Below are positions 1 to 42,132 of a DNA stretch of 42,132 bases, in pieces (position 1 is the stretch's first letter; each line of letters starts with the position of its first letter). The translations under genes were made by a program, and so were the position numbers. The notes under the pieces are model-generated. The model was not told where the DNA came from. It saw nothing but the letters and a program-made list of their open reading frames with translations, and made no database searches. This DNA is from a virus: IMG/VR virus record IMGVR_UViG_3300006886_000001. One strand, given 5' to 3'.

Positions 1-99
1 GTAGTTACATAGGAAGTTACATAAAACTTCCTATACCTCTTCAATAACCCCACAAAATGGCTATTTTATACCACATGTTGGTAGAGTCTCCAGCCACCA
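1..99. repeat. Terminal direct repeat, left copy (identical to 42034-42132)
   Basis: Read directly. gtagttacataggaagttacataaaacttcc...ctccagccacca occurs at both window ends, 99/99 identical. Either a circular-contig overlap or the att identity segment. Confidence 0.95.
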
Positions 100-291: not shown

Positions 292-1542
292 ATGCCAAGA
301 ACGGTTGCACCTCTTACCGATAAGCAGATAAATAATGCCAAATCAAGCGAAAAATTTTACACTTTAGCAGACGGAAAAGGGCTACAGCTTTTGGTTTCTC
401 CCGATGGTCGGAAGTCATGGGAGATCGTATACCTCTCCCCCGTGACCAATAAACGGCGTAAGTCTTCTTTTGGCGTTTTCCCTACCGTTTCCCTTAAAGA
501 GGCTCGAACGAGGCGCGACGAGTGGCAGGGCTTTGTTAGACAAGGCATCGATCCTATTGATCAAAAAAAAGAGATCAAAAAAGAAGAGAAGTTACATATA
601 GAAAGCAACTTCAAAAACGTTGTTACATATTGGCTCAAAGACCAAGAGACCAGACTTCAACCAAACACATTCCAAAGAAAAAAGTCTTTAATCGAGCATA
701 CCGTGCTCAAAGCGTTCGCAGATCGGCTTATGGAAGACATAGACCACACCGAGATCATCAAGATCATCGAAGTTAAGGCGATACAGACGCCCGAAACCTC
801 TAGGCGGCTCTTTACCTATCTTAACGACCTTTGGCAATTTGCCTGCAGCAGAAAGCTATGCAAGCATAATATCATCGCGAACATTCATAAAAAAAGCACT
901 TTGCCAAAAGTTGGAAAAGTCCACTACTCAAAAGTGACTGACATGGCTATTTTTAAAGAGTTGATCGATGCGATCTATTGCTATCATGGGCATTATTCCA
1001 CGAAAAATGCTCTCAAATTTGTCTTACACTTACCGCTTCGCGCGCAAAATCTTGTAAATCTAAGATGGTCCTGCATCGACATCGATAAAAAAACCCTCAC
1101 CATCCCCAGGGCAGAGATGAAGATAAAAGATAAAAATTATGAAGATTTTACCCTGCCACTCAGCGATGAAGTGATCAACATTTTACAAGAGCAGTACCTC
1201 TTTACCTCAAGCAACACATTTGTTTTTGTCTCAAATAGGGAAAATCACATAAACGAAGAAACCCCCAACAGAGCGCTAGAACGCATGGGATTTAGCGATA
1301 AAAAGCGCGGAAGGCACCAAAGGCTTCATTCATTTAGAGGTACGTTTCGCAGCATCGTAGACACGTACCAAATGGAGCATAAATGCAGTTTCGAGGCAAA
1401 GGAGAAAGCGCTTGACCACGCTGTCGGAAATTCTACCGAGAGAGCTTACACTCACAAAGCCGATCACCTCAAAGAGATGCGGGTTTTGTTGGACTGGTGG
1501 AGCGAATTTATCGTAAAGAATTTAAGTGACAAGAGGCCATAG
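292..1542 (+). CDS. int: Tyrosine integrase, P4-type (N-terminal arm-binding DUF4102-like domain)
   Basis: N-terminus LTDKQINNAK..FYTLADGKGLQLLVSPDGRKSWEIVY is typical of P4-family integrases. Catalytic signature is present: LPLRAQNL (Arg), HSFRGTFRS (His-x-x-Arg), HAVGNSTERAYTH (His...Tyr). Confidence 0.9.
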   Translation: MPRTVAPLTDKQINNAKSSEKFYTLADGKGLQLLVSPDGRKSWEIVYLSPVTNKRRKSSFGVFPTVSLKEARTRRDEWQGFVRQGIDPIDQKKEIKKEEKLHIESNFKNVVTYWLKDQETRLQPNTFQRKKSLIEHTVLKAFADRLMEDIDHTEIIKIIEVKAIQTPETSRRLFTYLNDLWQFACSRKLCKHNIIANIHKKSTLPKVGKVHYSKVTDMAIFKELIDAIYCYHGHYSTKNALKFVLHLPLRAQNLVNLRWSCIDIDKKTLTIPRAEMKIKDKNYEDFTLPLSDEVINILQEQYLFTSSNTFVFVSNRENHINEETPNRALERMGFSDKKRGRHQRLHSFRGTFRSIVDTYQMEHKCSFEAKEKALDHAVGNSTERAYTHKADHLKEMRVLLDWWSEFIVKNLSDKRP

Positions 1543-28975: not shown

Positions 28976-28994
28976 AGATGCCCCTTTGTAGGAT

Positions 28995-29038
28995 GTTTTA
29001 AGTCAGCCCGAAGGGGCAACAACGGGCTTACTTAAAAC
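28995..29038 (-). ncRNA. 16-bp leader hairpin in the 5' UTR of the leftward early transcript
   Basis: GTTTTAAGTCAGCCCG (28995-29010) pairs with CGGGCTTACTTAAAAC (29023-29038) with 1 mismatch and a 12-nt loop. It lies between the promoter and the start at 28975. Confidence 0.5.
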
Positions 29039-29075
29039 ATAACTATTTACATTTGTTTCCAAGTGCATGAGTGGA

Positions 29076-29118
29076 ATCATACGACAATATGTCTTTATTT
29101 GTCAAGACCTTATGTCTT
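29076..29118 (-). promoter_or_regulatory. Leftward early promoter with two operators
   Basis: On the minus strand: TTGACA (29105-29100), an 18-nt spacer, then TATGAT (29081-29076). Operators are AAGAC-N5-GTCTT at 29104-29118 (perfect) and ACGAC-N5-GTCTT at 29081-29095. Confidence 0.7.
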
Positions 29119-29226
29119 TTTATTTTTACATGTAAAGAGTAAGGTGAGAATTTATACGTGTTAAAGATAGTGGGAAAAGTTGTGATTTTAGAGAGGTAAT
29201 GGTAGAGAAATTGGTTATTTTTGGGC

Positions 29227-29266
29227 ATAAAAAAAGCCTTGCCCCCACTAAGAGAGACAAGGCTTT
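29227..29266 (-). terminator. Rho-independent terminator ending the repressor operon
   Basis: A 9-bp stem (AAAGCCTTG with CAAGGCTTT, 29233-41 and 29258-66) with a 16-nt loop. On the minus strand it is followed by a T-run. Confidence 0.7.
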
Positions 29267-29343: not shown

Positions 29344-29739
29344 CTAATTAAATGGTAAATATACATCGTGTTCTTTGTGTTTTTTGAGAGCCTTGTATAC
29401 TTTGCCATTTTTCAATAAAAATTTGTAAGACGTAAACCCAGTATATCCACCATAACTATTTTTGCCATTTATTTCTACTTCTGTCAAATACCCATAATAA
29501 ATAGCCCCTCCAAGGGCAATCCCATCTTGAAAATACCCTTTGTGGATAATTGTAAATTTGTATTGTGCGGACGATGGATCTTTTAATCTATACTCCATCC
29601 ATTCTTTTACCGCATTTTCTGCTTCGTCTTGTCCTATTTCTCTCCCATAGTCTGCACTTTCTACCTGTTGTGGGGTTGGGGGAGTGGCGCATCCTATAAA
29701 AAATAACCCTAAAATTAAAGACAAAAACAATGATTTCAT
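29344..29739 (-). CDS. Lipoprotein (131 aa), candidate superinfection-exclusion factor
   Basis: Signal peptide and lipobox (LILGLFFIGC). Last gene before the terminator, in the lysogenic operon. Confidence 0.6.
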   Translation of the reverse strand: MKSLFLSLILGLFFIGCATPPTPQQVESADYGREIGQDEAENAVKEWMEYRLKDPSSAQYKFTIIHKGYFQDGIALGGAIYYGYLTEVEINGKNSYGGYTGFTSYKFLLKNGKVYKALKKHKEHDVYLPFN

Positions 29740-29748
29740 AAAATTCTC

Positions 29749-30396
29749 CTATAAAAATCTTGCCCAATGGCGTTCTGAAACAATGGCTATACCAGTCTTT
29801 TTTTGATCGCGTAGCTCTATGGCCTTTTCTATCTTTCTTCCAAAACTAGAGTGCGCCCAGTCTTGGCTTCCTATGTCACCTATGACGAGGAAGTCTGTGT
29901 CTTTTTTGACCCCATCGTGGATAATGCCGCCAAGCTCTACAATAAGCTCTGAGAGCTGTTTTCGTGGTCCTGTTGTAAATATCCCCGTAAAAACAAACGA
30001 TGCGCCTTCTATGGCGATGCTAGGTGCAGGCTTACATAAAGGAAGTGTACTGCTCATGCTATCTATCTCTGCATCATCACAGATTATGTCTCCACCTGTA
30101 AGCTCAGCCATTGTCTCTAAAAGTTCTTTTTGCTCTTCATCATCTAAAATGCCATCTTTGAGCATTTCAGAGATTCGATTATAGAGTATGTTAAAAGGGT
30201 AATGTTCTGCAACATGGGAATTGGCTTCTATCCATTTAAGAAGAAACTGCGCTTCTTGCATATTGGTAGCGTTGTCTGCGATCATACCTCTACAAACACC
30301 TATAAGCTCATCGATCTTACGGTTACATACTTCTTTTGCGCGAATATTTCGTGTTTTGAGTTGCCCTTGGTCATCTGTTAGTTTTGCATCACTCAT
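29749..30396 (-). CDS. BRCT-domain protein with an N-terminal helical domain
   Basis: Residues ~128-215 (IEGASFVFTGIFTTGPRKQLSELIVELGGIIHDGVKKDTDFLVIGDIGS...KIEKAIEL) match the LigA-type BRCT pattern. The N-terminus (GMIADNATNMQEAQFLLKWI...LKDGILDDEEQKELL) is TerB/DjlA-N-like by eye. Confidence 0.7.
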   Translation of the reverse strand: MSDAKLTDDQGQLKTRNIRAKEVCNRKIDELIGVCRGMIADNATNMQEAQFLLKWIEANSHVAEHYPFNILYNRISEMLKDGILDDEEQKELLETMAELTGGDIICDDAEIDSMSSTLPLCKPAPSIAIEGASFVFTGIFTTGPRKQLSELIVELGGIIHDGVKKDTDFLVIGDIGSQDWAHSSFGRKIEKAIELRDQKKTGIAIVSERHWARFL

Positions 30397-30436
30397 CTTT
30401 TTCCCTTTATTAAAAACCTACTAAATTTTAAGCACC

Positions 30437-31501
30437 CTATTCTTTACCTATTTTTCTTTTTTCAGCAGATGCTATAAGCTCTTCTTTATGGTTGTAAAGT
30501 TCATCGACACTATTAATAGCGATCTTAACTTCCGCTCCATTTTCGTCAGGGAGCCCTAACGTTTTCTGTTTGCCATTGAAATATAGCCTACAAATCCATT
30601 TTGTTACTTTTCCTTGATAAAGAATATTGAAGTAACTCATAGTGTCTTTATAGCTGACATTTTTTATCCCAATAGTTTCACCAACAATTGAACGCACAAT
30701 GTAAAAAGCATTAAGTTCATCTTCTGTCGTAATCACTTGTTTTTCGTCGACTACAGGCTCTTCTTCTTGGACTTCTTCAATTTGTTGAGGAACGGATAGT
30801 GTAGACTGAATTGCTTGGATTTTATCGTTTGCCATGTCATTTAGAACATCAGCAAAAGATTTTTTGACATAGCCTCTAAACTCTTCTATCACGGCTGTAG
30901 ACATTCTTCTTTCAGTGATTTTTCTCGCAAAAAAGGTTACAAAGTCATCAGATGGATTATCAACTTCTGCTTTAAAAATAGCTTGAATCTCTCTGTGATA
31001 TTTTTTTGTACTGGCCATTTGCAATATGGTTTCTGTGTCGAGAACATCTTTGGCAAATTTTACTAATTCTTTGATATCTCTATCTCTTACATTTTCAAGG
31101 TTTATCACTAAAAATGGTGTTTTATCCATCTTGTTTTGTTCTTCAAGGTCTGAGAAAAATCGATACTCTAACCCATTGGTTAAAATGGCAAATTTGCAAT
31201 CTGTCACATGAAAATATCGTACGAGCTGGTTATTGTGGTTGTTAAGGTTTTCAGTATGGCTTTTGACCTCTATAATCATAATAGGCTTACCATCACGCAA
31301 TATAGCATAGTCTACTTTTTCACCTTTTTTAGTGCCGATATCGGCAGTAAATTCAGGAACTATCACCGTTGGGTCAAATACATCATAACCAAGAACTGAA
31401 AGAAAAGGCATCACAAAAGATTGCTTGGTTGCTTCTTCGGTCAAAATTTTATCTTTCATCGTTTTGATACGATCACCAAGTGCTTTTATTTTCGCTTCCA
31501 T
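30437..31501 (-). CDS. PD-(D/E)xK nuclease-fold protein, HsdR_N-like (stand-alone)
   Basis: TEEATKQSFVMPFLSVLGYD..VDYAIL (D64)..IIEVK (E78, K80)..NQLVRYF..AILTNGLEYRFF is the type I restriction HsdR N-terminal domain pattern. The C-terminal ~150 aa are an unassigned domain. Confidence 0.7.
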   Translation of the reverse strand: MEAKIKALGDRIKTMKDKILTEEATKQSFVMPFLSVLGYDVFDPTVIVPEFTADIGTKKGEKVDYAILRDGKPIMIIEVKSHTENLNNHNNQLVRYFHVTDCKFAILTNGLEYRFFSDLEEQNKMDKTPFLVINLENVRDRDIKELVKFAKDVLDTETILQMASTKKYHREIQAIFKAEVDNPSDDFVTFFARKITERRMSTAVIEEFRGYVKKSFADVLNDMANDKIQAIQSTLSVPQQIEEVQEEEPVVDEKQVITTEDELNAFYIVRSIVGETIGIKNVSYKDTMSYFNILYQGKVTKWICRLYFNGKQKTLGLPDENGAEVKIAINSVDELYNHKEELIASAEKRKIGKE

Positions 31502-31529
31502 TGATTCCCTTTTTGAATTTAGATTTTAT

Positions 31530-32144
31530 TTATTCCTTCAACAACATCAAACTACCAAATTTCAAACGCCCGACTATCTTGCCTACAATATCAAAATCAT
31601 TGATGCCAAGCTCAAAGGAATCGTACTCTTTGTTGTCGCTTTTTATGATCGCTTTTTTGCCGATGATCTGCACGCGCTTGATCTGTACAACGTCATCATA
31701 AGCGATGAGATAGACCGCTTCCGCAGGGATGACATCTCTACCATTGCGTAGCTCTATGATCGCCCAGTCGTTCTCATCCAAGTACGGGGCCATACTATCA
31801 CCCACAATGCGGATCATAGCAATGTCTTTGGTGATGATATTTGAAGGAAAAACACGACTATCAAAGACGAAGTTATCTGAACTAAGGCGCAGTTGCTCAA
31901 GCATACCCGCAGCGCCACATCCTGCGACGGCTTCAAATATTGGAATGGTGATGATATTTTGAGAAGTTGAGACATTTTGTCTTAAATCTTTCCAAATTTT
32001 AGAAGGAACACCTCTCTGCAACCACTTTGCCACTGTTAATTCATTTTGACCAAGTATGCTTGCGACTTCTTTAACACCCTTGGCATTTAGGGCTTTCATC
32101 AAAGATTCAAAACTATCAGGATCAACTTTTTCTAAATTTTTCAT
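31530..32144 (-). CDS. cI: CI-type repressor (HTH + S24 LexA-like autopeptidase)
   Basis: HTH is VKEVASILGQNELTVAKWLQRG. The S24 motif is IVGDSMAPYL, with a downstream Lys region. Preferred start is ATG 32144 after GAGGAAAAAG, because the longer ORF would overlap the operator. Confidence 0.85.
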   Translation of the reverse strand: MKNLEKVDPDSFESLMKALNAKGVKEVASILGQNELTVAKWLQRGVPSKIWKDLRQNVSTSQNIITIPIFEAVAGCGAAGMLEQLRLSSDNFVFDSRVFPSNIITKDIAMIRIVGDSMAPYLDENDWAIIELRNGRDVIPAEAVYLIAYDDVVQIKRVQIIGKKAIIKSDNKEYDSFELGINDFDIVGKIVGRLKFGSLMLLKE

Positions 32145-32159
32145 CTTTTTCCTCAAAAA

Positions 32160-32201
32160 AAGACATAAGGTCTTGACATTAAAGACAAAACGTCTTATAC
32201 T
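32160..32201 (+). promoter_or_regulatory. Rightward early promoter with two operators
   Basis: TTGACA (32173-78), a 17-nt spacer, then TATACT (32196-201). Operators are AAGAC-N5-GTCTT at 32160-74 and 32182-96, both perfect. The 20-mer AAAGACATAAGGTCTTGACA is shared with the leftward promoter. Confidence 0.75.
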
Positions 32202-32219
32202 TTCATTCATAAATCGTTC

Positions 32220-32234: not shown

Positions 32235-32287
32235 AAACATTTAATAAAAGTATATTGAAAATTCATAAATTATGAAAGGTTTTTGAC

Positions 32288-34006: not shown

Positions 34007-34318
34007 ATGAAAATGATTTCCTTTAAAGAATGGGAAGAACAAGGCGAAAAGTTATTTGGCGAAAATAAAAGAGATTGGAAATTTGTATGCCCAATGTGCA
34101 ATACTGCACAATCTTTTAATGATTTACTGCAAGCAGGTATATCTGAGGATGATGCGCAAGGTTATGTAGCCTACAGTTGCATTGGAAGGTTTAATAATAA
34201 AGAAAAAGGGTGTAATTGGACTCTAGGAGGCTTGTTTAGCATCCATAAATTGGAAGTTGTTAACGAAGAAGGGACTCGACCAATGTTTGAGTTTTTAAAG
34301 AACGAAAATGTTCAATAA
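34007..34318 (+). CDS. Cys-rich conserved phage protein (Zn-binding candidate)
   Basis: [14 protein letters not shown]...[20 protein letters not shown]. The pattern resembles a recurrent small phage family, recalled as VVA0879-like from memory. Confidence 0.45.
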
Positions 34319-34742
34319 AGTCGTAATGCTCGGCAACCTAACACGAGACTGTGAACTTCGCTACCTTCCAAGCGGTGGCGCAGTTTGTACGACTGGATTA
34401 GCCACCAACCGAAGATTTAAAAAGCAAGATGGTAGCCAAGGTGAAGAGGTATGTTTTATCGACATTACTTTCTTCGGGCGCACCGCAGAGATCGCGAACC
34501 AATACCTAAGCCGCGGTAAAAAAGTTTTGGTTGAAGGTCGCCTCAAACTTGACCAGTGGACGGATCAGCAAGGAGTTAAACGCTCGAAGCACTCCATCAC
34601 CGTTGAGACATTAACGATGGTCGATACGCGAAGCCAAGCACCGCAAACACACAACGGTGTGCCATGCGAAGTGACGGGACCAAACGGACAACCATTACCC
34701 GACTATATCCCCAACATCAACGATGACGAAATCCCATTTTAA
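34308..34742 (+). CDS. ssb: Single-stranded DNA-binding protein
   Basis: OB-fold N-terminus ([24 protein letters not shown]...[26 protein letters not shown]) and an acidic tip DDEIPF. Confidence 0.9.
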
Positions 34743-34751
34743 AGAGGCATT

Positions 34752-35576
34752 ATGAAACGACCATTTTTGCGTTACCTTGGCGGAAAATTTCGCATTGCCT
34801 CTTGGGTCGTCCAATTTTTCCCTGAACACCGAAAATATGTTGATGCGTATGGCGGTGGTGGTAGCGTTCTTTTTGAGAAACCTCGCTCGTATGAAGAAGT
34901 TTACAACGACCTAGACAGTGATGTTGTCAACCTCTTCCGCATAGCTCGGGATGATGCTTTAAAGCTCAAAAAGCTTATGGAGTGGACGCTTTGGAGTCGA
35001 GATGAATTTGAATTGGCGTATGAGCTAACCGATGACAAAATCGAACTGGCAAGACGTACTATCGTCAAATCATTTATGAGTTTCGGCACTGGCTCAAAGA
35101 CCAAAGAGCAAGCAGGATTTAACCAAGGCATGCACTCAAACGGCATAGGCGATGCGATAAAGTGGAGAGAGTACCCAAACGTACTTTTGGAAGTGCAAGA
35201 CCGCCTCATAGGCGTTGTGATAGAAAATAGAAAAGCCATGCAACTGATAGAGTGCCACGATGCGGTAGATACCCTCTTCTACTTAGACCCTCCATATCTT
35301 CCTAAAACAAGAGTTATGGGAACACGAGGCTACACGCATGAGATGACACGCCAAGACCACGTAGAATTGCTCGAGAAGATTTTACATGTAAAAGGTATGG
35401 TCATCATAAGCGGATACGAAAGCAAATTGTACGACGAAACCTTAGTCGGGTGGGATAAAAAGATCATCAACGCTCGCGCTGCAGGTTATAGGGGTGCAGT
35501 AAAACGCAAAGAGTGTATTTGGATAAATCCAAACGCACAACAAAAACTTCAAAACAATTTATTTTATTCAGCATAA
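34752..35576 (+). CDS. dam: N6-adenine DNA methyltransferase, Dam/D12 class
   Basis: YLGGKFRIASWV, YVDAYGGGGSV (SAM site) and FYLDPPY (DPPY catalytic motif). Confidence 0.85.
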   Translation: MKRPFLRYLGGKFRIASWVVQFFPEHRKYVDAYGGGGSVLFEKPRSYEEVYNDLDSDVVNLFRIARDDALKLKKLMEWTLWSRDEFELAYELTDDKIELARRTIVKSFMSFGTGSKTKEQAGFNQGMHSNGIGDAIKWREYPNVLLEVQDRLIGVVIENRKAMQLIECHDAVDTLFYLDPPYLPKTRVMGTRGYTHEMTRQDHVELLEKILHVKGMVIISGYESKLYDETLVGWDKKIINARAAGYRGAVKRKECIWINPNAQQKLQNNLFYSA

Positions 35577-35584
35577 GGAACACC

Positions 35585-35926
35585 ATGAAAGTTTACATAG
35601 CAAGCCCCGTTCGTCCAGTTTTGGAAAAGTGCAGAGCTGAAGGATTTGAGTTGTACGCTGCTTGGGGGCTTGTTTCCCTCATGGCATCCAATGGGTGTCG
35701 AACCATGAAAGAACTAGGTCACACCCCACTCTCCCCCATCTTAGCATTTGATGGCGTTTACTCCGAATACGAAGAGCGAGAGCGCATCGACCAAGCGTGT
35801 GAAGAACTGCTGCTAAGTTGCGATGCCATCTATGTCGTACCGACAGACTACAACAAAGACAGCAAAGGCATAGCGCGAGAGCTAGAGATCGCCAAGGCGC
35901 ATAACATCCCCATCATAGGAGCATAA
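35585..35926 (+). CDS. DUF4406 / nucleoside 2-deoxyribosyltransferase-like protein
   Basis: MKVYIASPVRP... N-terminus and 114-aa size fit the Rossmann-like NDT-fold families common next to phage MTases. Called by eye. Confidence 0.4.
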   Translation: MKVYIASPVRPVLEKCRAEGFELYAAWGLVSLMASNGCRTMKELGHTPLSPILAFDGVYSEYEERERIDQACEELLLSCDAIYVVPTDYNKDSKGIARELEIAKAHNIPIIGA

Positions 35927-35927
35927 A

Positions 35928-36038
35928 ATGGAACTCGTATACGCGATCACGTGCGTTGTGTTTATCATCGGCGCAATGCTTAAAAAACGTCCTGAGAAAA
36001 AAGGGAATATCGACCCCATCCGTGGGTGGTTGAGATGA
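35928..36038 (+). CDS. Small TM ORF (36 aa), not in the ORF track
   Basis: MELVYAITCVVFIIGAMLKKRPEKKG.... It starts 1 nt after the upstream stop and has an ATGA overlap with the next gene. Confidence 0.35.
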   Translation: MELVYAITCVVFIIGAMLKKRPEKKGNIDPIRGWLR

Positions 36039-36814
36039 AGTACATAGCATCATGGAGCGGAGGTAAAGACAGCACCGCTATGGTTGATTTGCTTCTTAGA
36101 GATAAAAAGCCTTTAGATTACATTGTTTTTTTAGATACCACAATCGAATTTAAACAAATGTATGACTACATTGAAAAATTAAAAGCTTATTGGGAACAAA
36201 GATATGATGCAAAAATAGTCATTCTTCATCCAAGTAAAAATAAAAATGATTTTAAAAAACATGTTGTCTTTTCAACTATCAGCAGAGGAAAACATGAGGG
36301 TAAGATAAGAGGTTTTTTAAATGCAGCAGACCCATTTTGCATGTGGAGGAGAGATGCCAAAATGGCACCTTTTGAAAAATGGGTTAAAAACATTGGTGAG
36401 TATAAAACTTACATAGGTTTTACAAAAGATGAAACACACAGATGTAAAACTGATAAAAATGAAATTTATCCTCTCGTCACAGACTATAAAATGAGTGAAA
36501 TAGATTGTCAAAAGTATCTAGTAGATCACGAAATGGAAAACTCCCTTTATAGGCATTTTACACGAACTGGGTGCAGACTTTGCCCTTACCAAAGTGAAAG
36601 AGATTGGTACAAAATATACCAATATTTCCCTGATGTATGGCAAGAGCTCAAAGATATGGAACAGAGATTAAATACTTTTGACAATGTTCTTTATCCAAAA
36701 CCATTTCAGAAATATCAAGGCACAAGCGAATATGAAAAAATGTTCAAAGGCAGGCAAGAGTGGGATTTTAACGATCAACCACTAAAAGACTGCCTTTGCC
36801 ATATTTTGGGGTAG
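36035..36814 (+). CDS. PP-loop ATPase, PAPS reductase / DndC-like family
   Basis: SWSGGKDS PP-loop. The C-terminal Cys pair TGCRLCPYQ is present. Confidence 0.75.
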   Translation: MKYIASWSGGKDSTAMVDLLLRDKKPLDYIVFLDTTIEFKQMYDYIEKLKAYWEQRYDAKIVILHPSKNKNDFKKHVVFSTISRGKHEGKIRGFLNAADPFCMWRRDAKMAPFEKWVKNIGEYKTYIGFTKDETHRCKTDKNEIYPLVTDYKMSEIDCQKYLVDHEMENSLYRHFTRTGCRLCPYQSERDWYKIYQYFPDVWQELKDMEQRLNTFDNVLYPKPFQKYQGTSEYEKMFKGRQEWDFNDQPLKDCLCHILG

Positions 36815-41847: not shown

Positions 41848-42045
41848 GAACAATCAAGAATACAACATTTAAGACCAAAACAAGTAGCAGAAGAATATCA
41901 TATAGGTCTTAGCACCGTTTGGAGATACGCCAAACTAGGATATTTTACCCCCATAAAGATCACTGGAGGGGTAACGGTTTTTTTAAGAAACGAGCTTGAT
42001 AACTTCTTTACCGGCAATGCTCAAAGTCAAAACGTAGTTACATAG
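41845..42045 (+). CDS. xis: Excisionase / AlpA-family HTH protein
   Basis: LRPKQVAEEYHIGLSTVWRYAKLGYFTPIKI..V.F...ELDNF matches the Xis/AlpA MerR-like HTH pattern. It is the last gene before attP and int on the circular map. Confidence 0.7.
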   Translation: MEQSRIQHLRPKQVAEEYHIGLSTVWRYAKLGYFTPIKITGGVTVFLRNELDNFFTGNAQSQNVVT

Positions 42046-42132
42046 GAAGTTACATAAAACTTCCTATACCTCTTCAATAACCCCACAAAATGGCTATTTT
42101 ATACCACATGTTGGTAGAGTCTCCAGCCACCA
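42034..42132. repeat. Terminal direct repeat, right copy (identical to 1-99)
   Basis: Same 99 bases as the window start. The last 12 nt of the xis-like ORF, including its stop, lie inside this repeat. Confidence 0.95.

What the first reader, a model, noticed from the sequence alone, without database searches (positions are those of the whole stretch)
29344..31501. Three-gene cassette behind the CI repressor (HsdR_N-like nuclease, BRCT protein, lipoprotein) in the rexAB position: candidate novel prophage defence or exclusion system
Seen in the sequence:
- Three co-directional genes fill the space between the cI stop (31530) and a strong intrinsic terminator (29227-29266).
- The gaps between them are short (28, 40 and 9 nt) and show no hairpin.
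- The whole block lies inside the segment bracketed by the two operator-bearing early promoters, so it should be transcribed with the repressor in lysogens.

Established knowledge: this is the slot where lambda carries rexA/rexB, and where other temperate phages carry exclusion or abortive-infection morons.

The three genes:
- Gene 1 has the PD-(D/E)xK core of the type I HsdR N-terminal domain (D64, E78-x-K80, QLVRYF, TNG). It has no helicase, methylase or specificity partner, and carries an unassigned ~150-aa C-terminal domain.
- Gene 2 joins a TerB/DjlA-N-like helical domain to a LigA-type BRCT domain. I cannot recall BRCT in any named defence system.
- Gene 3 is a lipoprotein, like the Cor/Llp-type exclusion factors.

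Inference: a lysogen-expressed sensor (BRCT) plus effector (nuclease) pair with an envelope component.
Basis: partly seen in the sequence, partly recalled or inferred. Interest (0 to 1): 0.85.

Follow-up and report, generated by a model that had tools for sequence, protein, structure and literature searches.

The report
Three unrelated cargo genes behind repressor
The three genes behind this temperate phage's repressor are real and probably switched on in lysogens, but they are three separately swapped accessory genes and not one defence system; two of them belong to large, untested families that often sit behind phage repressors.

Summary
Three co-directional minus-strand ORFs lie between cI and a strong terminator, with gaps of 28, 40 and 9 nt. 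The block is flanked by two divergent early promoters that share AAGAC-N5-GTCTT operators.

The domain calls hold:
- Gene 1 is an HsdR_N-type PD-(D/E)xK nuclease with D64, E78 and K80 invariant.
- Gene 2 has a helical N-domain plus an RFC1/LigA-type BRCT domain.
- Gene 3 is a lipoprotein.

- 80 viral loci with a gene 1 homolog carry no gene 2 or gene 3.
- 160 loci with a gene 2 homolog hold one weak HsdR_N-like ORF and one gene 3-like ORF.
- A sibling phage (79-92% nt identity) runs from the cI stop straight into gene 2. It lacks gene 1 and carries other cargo in place of gene 3.
- The closest gene 1 homolog (79%) follows cI alone.
- The gene 1-gene 2 spacer looks like a decayed copy of the cI 3' end, which suggests an insertion scar.

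Each gene is therefore autonomous cargo in a swap-prone slot. Families 1 and 2 each recur directly behind prophage repressors (gene 2 is the K139 Orf2 family) and match no named defence system. They are reasonable single-gene defence candidates, but they are not a new multi-gene system.

The parts
31530..32144 (-). cI-type repressor (HTH + S24 peptidase). An alternative upstream start at 32210 gives 226 aa.
   Evidence: Pfam Peptidase_S24 7.2e-13 and phrog_4 transcriptional repressor. Gene callers report both 204-aa and 226-aa forms.
30437..31501 (-). Gene 1: solitary HsdR_N-type PD-(D/E)xK nuclease (residues 1-135), long helical linker (156-234) and a C-terminal alpha-beta5-alpha domain (260-351) of unknown fold family. 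Variable cargo, absent from the sibling phage.
   Evidence: Pfam HSDR_N 1.8e-17 and phrog_4225 1.4e-123 full length. D64, E78 and K80 invariant. AF2 pLDDT 87.8. Foldseek 3h1t HsdR fragment E 9e-3, prob 1.00; C-domain has no convincing match. Sibling L262 lacks window 30441-31526.
30397..30445 (-). Spacer between gene 1 and gene 2 that resembles the 3' end of cI. Likely a recombination scar from the acquisition of gene 1.
   Evidence: Three-way alignment with L262, where cI runs directly into gene 2. Local alignment score 18 against shuffles 10.9 +/- 2.0, with 13 of 2000 shuffles reaching it.
29749..30396 (-). Gene 2: four-helix N-domain (16-100, weakly TerB-like), disordered linker (104-116) and an RFC1/LigA-type BRCT domain (125-212). 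K139 Orf2 family. The conserved resident of this slot in the phage lineage.
   Evidence: Pfam BRCT 1.9e-9 and phrog_3989 2.5e-65. BLASTP against K139 Orf2 6e-33. T137, G138, R145 and K188 invariant and aligned to the TG...R...K of RFC1 BRCT. AF2 and Foldseek. Present at 82-94% identity in siblings L261 and L262.
29344..29739 (-). Gene 3: lipoprotein (lipobox FIGC, Cys17) with conserved RLKDPxSAQY and NGKNSYGGYTG motifs. Variable cargo, replaced by other ORFs in the siblings.
   Evidence: phrog_2320 4.1e-22. Cys17 and both motifs invariant in 20 homologs. 381 related stretches in viral contigs, mostly inside tail modules. Absent from L261 and L262.
29233..29266 (-). Intrinsic terminator that closes the cI-cargo transcription unit.
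   Evidence: 14-bp stem, 6 GC pairs, T-run. Its 3' part (29211-29239) is 96.6% conserved in sibling L261 although the cargo differs.
29076..29121 (-). Leftward early promoter (TTGACA-18-TATGAT) with two AAGAC-N5-GTCTT operators. Drives the cII-like, replication and structural genes.
32157..32201 (+). Rightward early promoter (TTGACA-17-TATACT) with two AAGAC-N5-GTCTT operators. Drives the cro-like and early genes.
   Evidence: The 22-nt segment 32157-32178 is the exact reverse complement of 29100-29121.
32249..32276 (-). Candidate maintenance promoter for cI and the cargo (TTCATA-16-TATACT, 9 of 12). Weak consensus match only.
   Evidence: Inferred, not tested.

Best explanation
The stretch between cI and the leftward early promoter of this complete, circular temperate phage genome is a cargo (moron) hot spot. 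The host is probably a Campylobacterota bacterium. The slot holds three autonomous accessory genes that were acquired separately.

Transcription (inferred): all three are most likely transcribed with cI in lysogens from a maintenance promoter and stopped by the terminator at 29233-29266.

Proposed roles:
- Gene 1 is a stand-alone restriction-like endonuclease. It has an active-looking HsdR_N-type PD-(D/E)xK core joined by a helical linker to a probable DNA-recognition domain. It has no methylase, helicase or specificity partner, so it must spare host DNA through its own specificity. That could be type IV-like dependence on modification, or activation by a trigger.
- Gene 2 (K139 Orf2 family) is a small DNA-binding protein. 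Its BRCT domain keeps the 5'-phosphate pocket of the RFC1 and LigA BRCT domains. It probably binds 5'-phosphorylated ends or nicks in incoming or replicating phage DNA and interferes with their processing.
- Gene 3 is an envelope lipoprotein of a family that phages usually carry next to tail genes. It probably modifies or masks a surface or injection component, giving superinfection exclusion.

Shown: gene structure, domains, conservation, modular swapping and the recurrent position behind repressors. Inferred: co-transcription and all three biochemical roles.
For: Anatomy and signals.

Independence of the three genes:
- The sets of phage records carrying gene 1 and gene 2 do not overlap.
- None of 80 gene 1 loci has gene 2 or gene 3.
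- Of 160 gene 2 loci, one has a weak gene 1-like ORF and one has a gene 3-like ORF.
- None of 80 gene 3 loci has gene 1. One has a marginal BRCT hit on the opposite strand.
- Sibling L262 is collinear with the window except for exact absence of gene 1 and replacement of gene 3.
- Sibling L261 has a 132-aa ORF in place of gene 1 and other ORFs in place of gene 3, but keeps the terminator.
- The closest gene 1 homologs (L258-L260) follow an S24 repressor alone.
- A relic of the cI 3' end lies in the gene 1-gene 2 spacer.

Each family recurs in the slot behind a repressor:
- For gene 1, the upstream neighbour is HTH_3 in 25 of 63, S24 in 14 of 63 and M78 in 4 of 63. The downstream neighbour is an integrase or recombinase in about 8 of 50. 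Examples are FNU_1P, IPP25 and KpF5.
- For gene 2, examples are K139 (cI-orf2-glo-int), Marin, phi1 and PG1. An S24 gene is adjacent in 18 of 66 viral loci.

Other support:
- Gene 1 has an intact catalytic core and an HsdR nuclease fold.
- The 54%-identical Campylobacter jejuni homolog is solitary in a variable chromosomal locus with no adjacent methylase. One source names family members 'predicted type IV restriction endonuclease'.
- The gene 2 BRCT pocket residues are invariant, and the best structural matches are the DNA-binding RFC1 and LigA BRCT domains.
- The gene 3 lipobox is invariant and the family sits in tail modules.
Against: - No expression data exist. Co-transcription rests on short gaps, the lack of an internal terminator and the analogy with lambda.
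- No member of any of the three families has a tested function in the searchable literature.
- The C-terminal domain of gene 1 has no recognisable fold relative, so DNA recognition is a guess.
- Gene 2 relatives also lie next to ligA (4 of 93) and next to, or fused with, large helicase-nucleases and exonucleases. That fits a DNA-repair or accessory role as well as it fits defence.
- In genome contigs only 3 of 67 gene 2 loci have an S24 gene within 1.5 kb upstream on the same strand.
- Only the best 80 loci per search were examined.
Confidence: 0.72

Rival explanations
1. One reading: one integrated three-gene defence system. The BRCT protein senses phage DNA or a phosphoprotein, activates the neighbouring nuclease, and the lipoprotein is an envelope component.
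For: The three genes are tightly packed, co-directional and share one terminator. The gene 2 module is sometimes next to or fused with nucleic-acid enzymes elsewhere: a thermonuclease in SNW-1, helicase-nuclease giants and a fusion, and RNase_T neighbours. One other locus (L103) has a gene 3-family ORF directly after a gene 2 homolog.
Against: Genes 1 and 2 do not co-occur outside near-identical copies of this phage. Sibling phages keep gene 2 without gene 1 or gene 3. The nearest gene 1 homologs stand alone after cI. Both families are overwhelmingly single genes with no conserved partner.
Confidence: 0.06
2. Genes 1 and/or 2 serve the phage's own life cycle and not host protection. For example, gene 2 could be a DNA-damage or DNA-end sensor that tunes repressor cleavage, induction or genome circularisation, and gene 1 could be a recombination or host-DNA nuclease.
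For: Gene 2 is coupled very tightly to cI, with a 2-nt gap in L262 and overlaps or short gaps in other phages. It is the conserved member of the slot in this lineage. Relatives lie beside ligA and are fused to exonuclease or helicase proteins. The BRCT domain is of the replication/repair RFC1 and LigA type.
Against: Both genes are patchy among close sibling phages and across phage groups, so they are dispensable for the life cycle. Gene 1 homologs are also solitary chromosomal genes in non-prophage variable loci. The position between repressor and integrase or early promoter is the classic site of lysogen-expressed accessory genes.
Confidence: 0.17
3. The cargo genes are inert passengers or decaying remnants with no selected function in this phage.
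For: The slot turns over quickly. No function is known for any of the three families.
Against: All three ORFs are intact, have ribosome-binding sites and keep every invariant residue of their families. The same proteins recur unchanged on 9-10 contigs in the protein collection; the exact-match look-ups read 7-8 contigs, from several metagenome samples.
Confidence: 0.05

Closest known systems
Lambda rexA-rexB, and other cargo behind the repressor such as P22 sieB or BTP1 BstA
   Same: Same slot and logic. The genes lie downstream of cI in the same orientation, between the two operator-controlled early promoters, and are closed by a terminator, so they are expected to be expressed in lysogens.
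   Different: No sequence relationship: the PADLOC and NCBIfam scans gave no hit to any named defence system. RexAB is an obligate two-protein sensor plus membrane effector. Here the genes are independent and are swapped one at a time.
Vibrio phage K139 lysogenic operon cI-orf2-glo-int
   Same: Gene 2 is a homolog of K139 Orf2 (34% identity, E 6e-33). In K139, orf2 lies directly after cI in the mapped lysogenic transcript and is followed by glo, a periplasmic exclusion protein. This parallels gene 2 followed by an envelope lipoprotein here.
   Different: K139 Orf2 is 301 aa with the helical N-domain duplicated. Glo and gene 3 share no similarity. No function for Orf2 turned up in the literature searches run here.
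[quoted passage not shown]
   Same: Same PD-(D/E)xK nuclease fold and motifs.
   Different: No SF2 motor and no HsdM or HsdS partner. Instead there is a helical linker and a novel C-terminal domain. A solitary gene of about 350 aa.
PADLOC candidate PDC-S48 and the GAPS2 single-gene anti-phage protein
   Same: 31 of 37 gene 2 family members match the C-terminal 126 positions of the 411-position PDC-S48 profile. GAPS2 is a validated one-protein defence whose NCBIfam model faintly matches the BRCT region.
   Different: The matches are partial or far below cut-off (26 bits over a third of PDC-S48; 16.5 bits against a cut-off of 330 for GapS2). The relationship is at domain level only. PDC-S48 itself is only a computational candidate.
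Cor/Llp-type superinfection-exclusion lipoproteins
   Same: A small phage-encoded lipoprotein. Family members usually sit inside tail modules next to tape-measure, tail-fibre or host-specificity genes, as I recall cor and llp do.
   Different: No detectable homology: no Pfam hit. The receptor-blocking function is untested. In this phage the gene lies in the immunity region and not in the tail module.

Membership tests
Type I restriction enzyme R subunit (HsdR) | N-terminal PD-(D/E)xK nuclease domain | tested here: met
   Pfam HSDR_N 64.3 bits against cut-off 25.1. D64, E78 and K80 invariant. Foldseek 3h1t prob 1.00.
Type I restriction enzyme R subunit (HsdR) | SF2 helicase/translocase motor (ResIII/DEAD) following the nuclease domain | tested here: not met
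   The protein is 354 aa. There is no helicase family in Pfam at E<=0.1. The model shows a helical linker and a small alpha-beta domain.
Type I restriction enzyme R subunit (HsdR) | Adjacent hsdM and hsdS genes | tested here: not met
   The neighbours are cI and gene 2. No conserved methylase or specificity neighbour appears in 80 viral loci or in C. jejuni. The phage's D12 methylase is also present in sibling L261, which lacks gene 1.
Type IV (modification-dependent) restriction endonucleases | Solitary nuclease without a cognate methyltransferase | tested here: met
   Contexts. JGI product name 'predicted type IV restriction endonuclease' for P0133 and P0222.
Type IV (modification-dependent) restriction endonucleases | Cleavage requires modified DNA; homology to a characterised type IV enzyme | not testable with these tools
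   No hit to Mrr, McrBC or GmrSD-type models in Pfam, PADLOC or NCBIfam. Biochemistry is needed.
Lambda RexAB | Homology to RexA and RexB; a two-protein sensor plus membrane channel | tested here: not met
   No PADLOC or NCBIfam hit. Only the position is shared.
BRCT domain superfamily (RFC1/LigA DNA-binding subtype) | BRCT fold above the family threshold | tested here: met
   Pfam BRCT 38 bits against cut-off 21.3. PDB profile hits RFC1 6.6e-8 and LigA 3.2e-6. Foldseek RFC1 and LigA BRCT.
BRCT domain superfamily (RFC1/LigA DNA-binding subtype) | Conserved phosphate-binding pocket (T/S-G ... R ... K) | tested here: met
   T137, G138, R145 and K188 are invariant in 37 sequences. In one search they align with the TG, R and K of RFC1. 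That these RFC1 residues bind the DNA 5'-phosphate is recalled from the literature, not tested here.
TerB-like helical domain (Pfam TerB / DUF533 clan) | Significant profile match of the gene 2 N-domain | tested here: inconclusive
   TerB in 6 of 31 members (best E 0.04). DUF533 in 3 of 31 (best E 7.6e-4). No PDB sequence match.
PADLOC PDC-S48 (candidate defence protein) | Full-length match to the 411-position profile | tested here: not met
   Only profile positions 278-403 match, at 26.2 bits.
GAPS2 (GapS2) anti-phage protein | NCBIfam NF047932 score above 330 bits | tested here: not met
   16.5 bits, E 0.0076, BRCT region only. 3 of 37 family members match at E<=0.01.
Lamassu LmuA | LmuA homology with LmuB (SMC) and LmuC partners | tested here: not met
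   15.6 bits, E 0.0037, in 1 of 40 members. No SMC-like neighbour.
Bacterial lipoproteins | Signal peptide ending in a lipobox with an invariant Cys | tested here: met
   MKSLFLSLILGLFFIGC; Cys17 invariant in 20 homologs.
Cor/Llp exclusion lipoproteins | Sequence homology and receptor blocking | not tested
   No Pfam family at E<=0.1. No direct comparison with Cor or Llp sequences was possible. The function needs experiment.

The most novel reading that the evidence does not exclude
The gene 2 family may be a new kind of single-protein prophage immunity factor. The family is a TerB-like helical domain plus an RFC1/LigA-type BRCT domain. It includes K139 Orf2, has at least 1368 clusters at 50% identity, and repeatedly lies immediately after prophage repressors. 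Under this reading it recognises 5'-phosphorylated ends or nicks of incoming phage DNA and blocks their ligation or circularisation, or hands them to host nucleases. Independently, the gene 1 family could be a widespread uncharacterised class of solitary restriction-like nuclease carried in prophage lysogeny modules.
Probability: 0.25. Interest if true: 0.7.

Novelty: new member of a known kind. Interest (0 to 1): 0.4.

Why it matters
The slot behind the prophage repressor has been a productive place to find defence genes (RexAB, SieB, BstA). This analysis removes a false lead, a supposed three-gene BRCT-nuclease-lipoprotein system, and replaces it with two sharper ones.

- **Gene 1 family.** It has at least 7,996 homologs and at least 579 stretches in viral contigs. 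It is the gene immediately after an HTH-type (HTH_3) repressor-like gene in 25 of 63 (about 40%) of the sampled viral loci that had a same-strand upstream neighbour.
- **Gene 2 family.** It has at least 1,368 clusters and includes the K139 orf2 gene, which was annotated in the K139 genome but has no function assigned in the record or in the papers searched.

Both are conserved, intact and absent from current defence catalogues, so each can be tested as a single cloned gene. The sibling-phage comparison also gives a clean natural example of one-gene-at-a-time cargo exchange at an immunity-region hot spot, with a probable recombination scar.

Tried and rejected
- **Whole-region DNA search.** A megablast of the region against 50,697 phage records found nothing. 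No close relative is annotated.
- **Gene 3 against K139 Glo.** No similarity, so the parallel between 'orf2 + glo' and 'gene 2 + gene 3' is positional only.
- **PDB sequence search for gene 1.** No hit at E<=1. Foldseek on the full model matched only the nuclease domain. C-terminal domain matches (MotA C-terminal domain, frataxin, YkuJ, Pur-alpha) had E>0.4 and were rejected as unreliable.
- **Gene 2 N-domain.** The PDB profile search gave only chance-level hits. The Pfam TerB and DUF533 matches are weak, so TerB-like remains a lead.
- **Phage D12 methylase as a partner of gene 1.** Rejected, because sibling L261 has the methylase without gene 1.
- **LmuA and Cas4 PADLOC hits for gene 1.** Rejected as generic PD-(D/E)xK similarity: E 0.004-0.014, and 1-5 of 40 members.
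- **Literature.** Searches on BRCT with prophage or defence, K139 orf2, COG4748, HsdR N-terminal domain with prophage, and DUF450 found no functional study of any of the three families.
- **Look-up of P0130.** It returned no record.
- **Not used.** The third fold search and the metagenome-contig scan.
Full report
**1. What is there**

The window is a whole contig, and its first and last 99 nt are identical. It is therefore a complete circular phage genome of about 42.0 kb.

ORFs:
- They lie downstream of an S24-type repressor that ends at 31530.
- The gaps are 28, 40 and 9 nt.
- Each start codon has an AAGGGA or AGGAG ribosome-binding site.

Signals:
- A 14-bp-stem intrinsic terminator lies at 29266..29233. 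The only other minus-strand terminator-like hit in the block is a weak 5-bp stem inside gene 3.
- The block is flanked by a leftward promoter (TTGACA-18-TATGAT, 29105..29076) and a rightward promoter (TTGACA-17-TATACT, 32173-32201).
- The two promoters share a 22-nt exact inverted segment, and each carries two AAGAC-N5-GTCTT palindromes.
- The layout is that of the lambda immunity region (PL - rexB rexA cI - PR). That comparison rests on established knowledge of lambda.
- Co-transcription with cI is the simplest reading, but it is an inference.

**2. What the proteins are**

Gene 1:
- It matches Pfam HSDR_N (1.8e-17) and phrog_4225 'endonuclease' over its full length (1.4e-123).
- In 40 homologs, D64, E78, K80, Q92, R95, Y96 and T108-N109-G110 are invariant, as are residues of the C-terminal part such as T258, T259, E262, D286, K301, W302 and R305.
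- The AlphaFold model (pLDDT 87.8) shows a nuclease domain, long helices (156-234), a disordered linker (237-253) and an alpha-beta5-alpha domain (260-351).
- Foldseek recognises only the HsdR nuclease domain (3h1t, E 9e-3, prob 1.00). The C-terminal domain has no reliable match, and there is no PDB sequence match.
The closest homologs come from Sulfurovum, Sulfurospirillum and Sulfuricurvum, which points to a Campylobacterota host.

Gene 2:
- It matches Pfam BRCT (1.9e-9) and phrog_3989 (2.5e-65).
- It is a homolog of K139 Orf2 (E 6e-33), which carries the helical N-domain twice.
- T137, G138, R145 and K188 are invariant. In one search they align with the TG...R...K of the RFC1 BRCT domain. 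Structurally, the closest matches are the RFC1 and LigA BRCT domains.
- The N-domain is a four-helix unit with only weak TerB and DUF533 signals.
- An exhaustive profile search finds 1,368 clusters at 50% identity with E<=1e-30. Most are stand-alone proteins of about 210 aa or about 300 aa, and a few are fusions.

Gene 3:
- It has a lipobox with an invariant Cys17, and conserved RLKDPxSAQY and NGKNSYGGYTG motifs.
- It matches phrog_2320.

**3. Is it one system?**

No. Four lines of evidence agree.

- Annotated phages. 19 records encode a gene 1 homolog and 17 encode a gene 2 homolog, with no record in common.
- Sampled loci. In 80 viral loci around gene 1 homologs (+/-8 kb) there is no gene 2 or gene 3. 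In 160 loci around gene 2 homologs (80 genomic, 80 viral) there is one weak HsdR_N-like ORF (L033, 43 bits) and one gene 3-family ORF (L103). In 80 loci around gene 3 homologs there is no gene 1 and one marginal BRCT hit on the opposite strand.
- Sibling phages.
  - L262 encodes a gene 2 protein 94% identical to the window's. It is collinear with the window from 33996 to the cI stop (31527), continues directly at 30440-29750 (gene 2), diverges, and resumes at 29161. It therefore lacks exactly gene 1 and carries about 2.1 kb of other ORFs instead of gene 3.
  - L261 (82%) has a 132-aa ORF in place of gene 1 and different ORFs in place of gene 3, but it keeps the terminator.
  - The nearest gene 1 homologs (79%, Sulfurovum-like prophages L258-L260) follow an S24 repressor alone and are followed by convergent lysis genes.
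- Insertion scar. The 40-nt spacer before gene 2 resembles the 3' end of cI. This is the sequence that directly precedes gene 2 in L262. The local alignment score is 18, against 10.9 +/- 2.0 in shuffles, and 13 of 2000 shuffles reach it. This looks like a scar left when gene 1 arrived together with a cI 3' end.

**4. What the comparison does show**

Each family is a recurrent, partner-less accessory gene.

- Gene 1 family. The gene immediately upstream on the same strand is HTH_3 in 25 of 63, S24 in 14 of 63 and ImmA-type M78 in 4 of 63. Downstream genes include integrases or recombinases in about 8 of 50. Named examples are Fusobacterium phage FNU_1P (cI - gene 1 - int), Streptococcus phage IPP25 and Klebsiella phage KpF5.
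- Gene 1 in Campylobacter jejuni. A 54%-identical homolog is a solitary chromosomal gene in a variable locus with no methylase nearby. One paper lists it among the differences between a phage-resistant strain and a sensitive one and calls its role unclear (PMC8713573).
- Gene 2 family. It sits directly after the repressor in K139, where the lysogenic transcript has been mapped and the next gene is the exclusion gene glo. It does the same in Pseudomonas phages Marin and phi1, and is one gene further along in PG1. An S24 gene is adjacent in 18 of 66 viral loci, but within 1.5 kb in only 3 of 67 genomic loci.
- Gene 2 in other settings. It lies after ligA in 4 of 93 loci and after DUF4011-type helicase-nuclease giants in 3 of 93. 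One 2,042-aa protein related to those giants carries the module at its C-terminus.
- Gene 3 family. It is mostly a cargo gene inside tail modules.

**5. Comparison with known systems**

- PADLOC gives no named system for any of the three proteins.
- The gene 2 family consistently matches only the C-terminal third of the candidate PDC-S48 (31 of 37 members). It matches the validated single-gene system GAPS2 only faintly (16.5 bits against a cut-off of 330).
- The gene 1 family gives only generic restriction-nuclease domain hits.
- Gene 1 is not a type I HsdR, because it has no motor domain and no HsdM or HsdS partner. It behaves like a solitary, possibly type IV-like, nuclease, but modification dependence is untested.
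- Nothing is homologous to RexAB. Only the position is shared.

**6. Most likely mechanism**

The region is a swap-prone cargo slot in the repressor operon. Three independent lysogen-expressed genes are stacked there:
- a restriction-like nuclease that acts on incoming DNA;
- a DNA-end or nick binder, through its BRCT 5'-phosphate pocket, that interferes with the processing of foreign DNA;
- an envelope lipoprotein that gives exclusion at the surface.

The structure, conservation, modularity and positional recurrence are shown. Expression and all three activities are inferred. The main rival is that gene 2, and perhaps gene 1, serves the phage's own DNA transactions or induction control. The ligA and helicase associations keep that rival alive (about 0.17).

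**7. Verdict**

- Novelty: new members of a known kind, namely prophage accessory genes behind the repressor.
- Interest is moderate (0.4). It rests on two large, untested families that are good single-gene defence candidates, and on a clean example of modular cargo exchange.

Noticed in passing
window 1-99 and 42034-42132: The first and last 99 nt are identical. The contig is therefore a circular assembly of a complete phage genome of about 42,033 bp, not a prophage embedded in a chromosome. A 416-aa ORF that may be the integrase lies at 292-1542 (+); it was not checked against any family library.
   Followed up: partly
window 28993-29040 (minus strand): An 18-nt-arm hairpin (94% complementary, 12-nt loop) lies in the 5' leader between the leftward early promoter and the first gene (cII-like, start 28975). 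It has no T-run, so it is not a simple terminator. Sibling L262 has a matching self-complementary sequence. It may be a regulatory RNA structure or an antitermination site.
   Followed up: no
window 31969-31983: A fifth operator-like palindrome (GAGACATTTTGTCTT, one mismatch to AAGAC-N5-GTCTT) lies inside the cI coding region, about 180 nt from the rightward promoter. It may be an auxiliary repressor site for looping or autoregulation.
   Followed up: no
L064:1962-7967, L092:2290-7863, L096:1812-7838; protein P0283: In three genomes the gene 2 homolog lies directly downstream of a protein of about 2,000 aa with DUF4011, AAA_11/12, MTES_1575 nuclease and DUF3320 domains. A related 2,042-aa protein (P0283) carries the TerB-like + BRCT module fused at its C-terminus. 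This is a fusion-or-neighbour link between the module and a large helicase-nuclease.
   Followed up: partly
L032, L035, L039, L071 (upstream neighbours of gene 2 homologs): In four bacterial genomes the gene 2 homolog lies immediately downstream of a full-length NAD-dependent DNA ligase gene (ligA). This hints at a functional link with nick sealing.
   Followed up: no
L001:3659-4564 (Vibrio phage K139 orf2): K139 Orf2 (301 aa) has two tandem copies of the helical N-domain in front of the BRCT domain. About 300-aa forms with two matched stretches are common in the family.
   Followed up: partly
L103:7956-9214: This is the only other locus of 160 in which a gene 2 homolog is directly followed by a gene 3-family ORF (211 aa, E 4.7e-11).
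   Followed up: no
window 34308-36814 (+): According to the gene calls on identical contigs, the rightward early operon encodes SSB, a D12-class N6-adenine methyltransferase and a PAPS-reductase-like protein. The methylase is also present in sibling L261, which lacks gene 1.
   Followed up: partly
L263:6001-7044 (Campylobacter jejuni chromosome): A 54%-identical gene 1 homolog sits alone between a holA-like gene and the hyp operon, in a strain-variable locus. A published comparison lists it as present in a phage-resistant strain and absent from a sensitive one (PMC8713573).
   Followed up: partly
L261:5594-5992, L018:7597-7995, L098:2450-2848: A 132-aa ORF with no Pfam family match occupies the slot between cI and gene 2 in several related Campylobacterota phages, where this window has gene 1. 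It is another cargo gene at the same hot spot.
   Followed up: no
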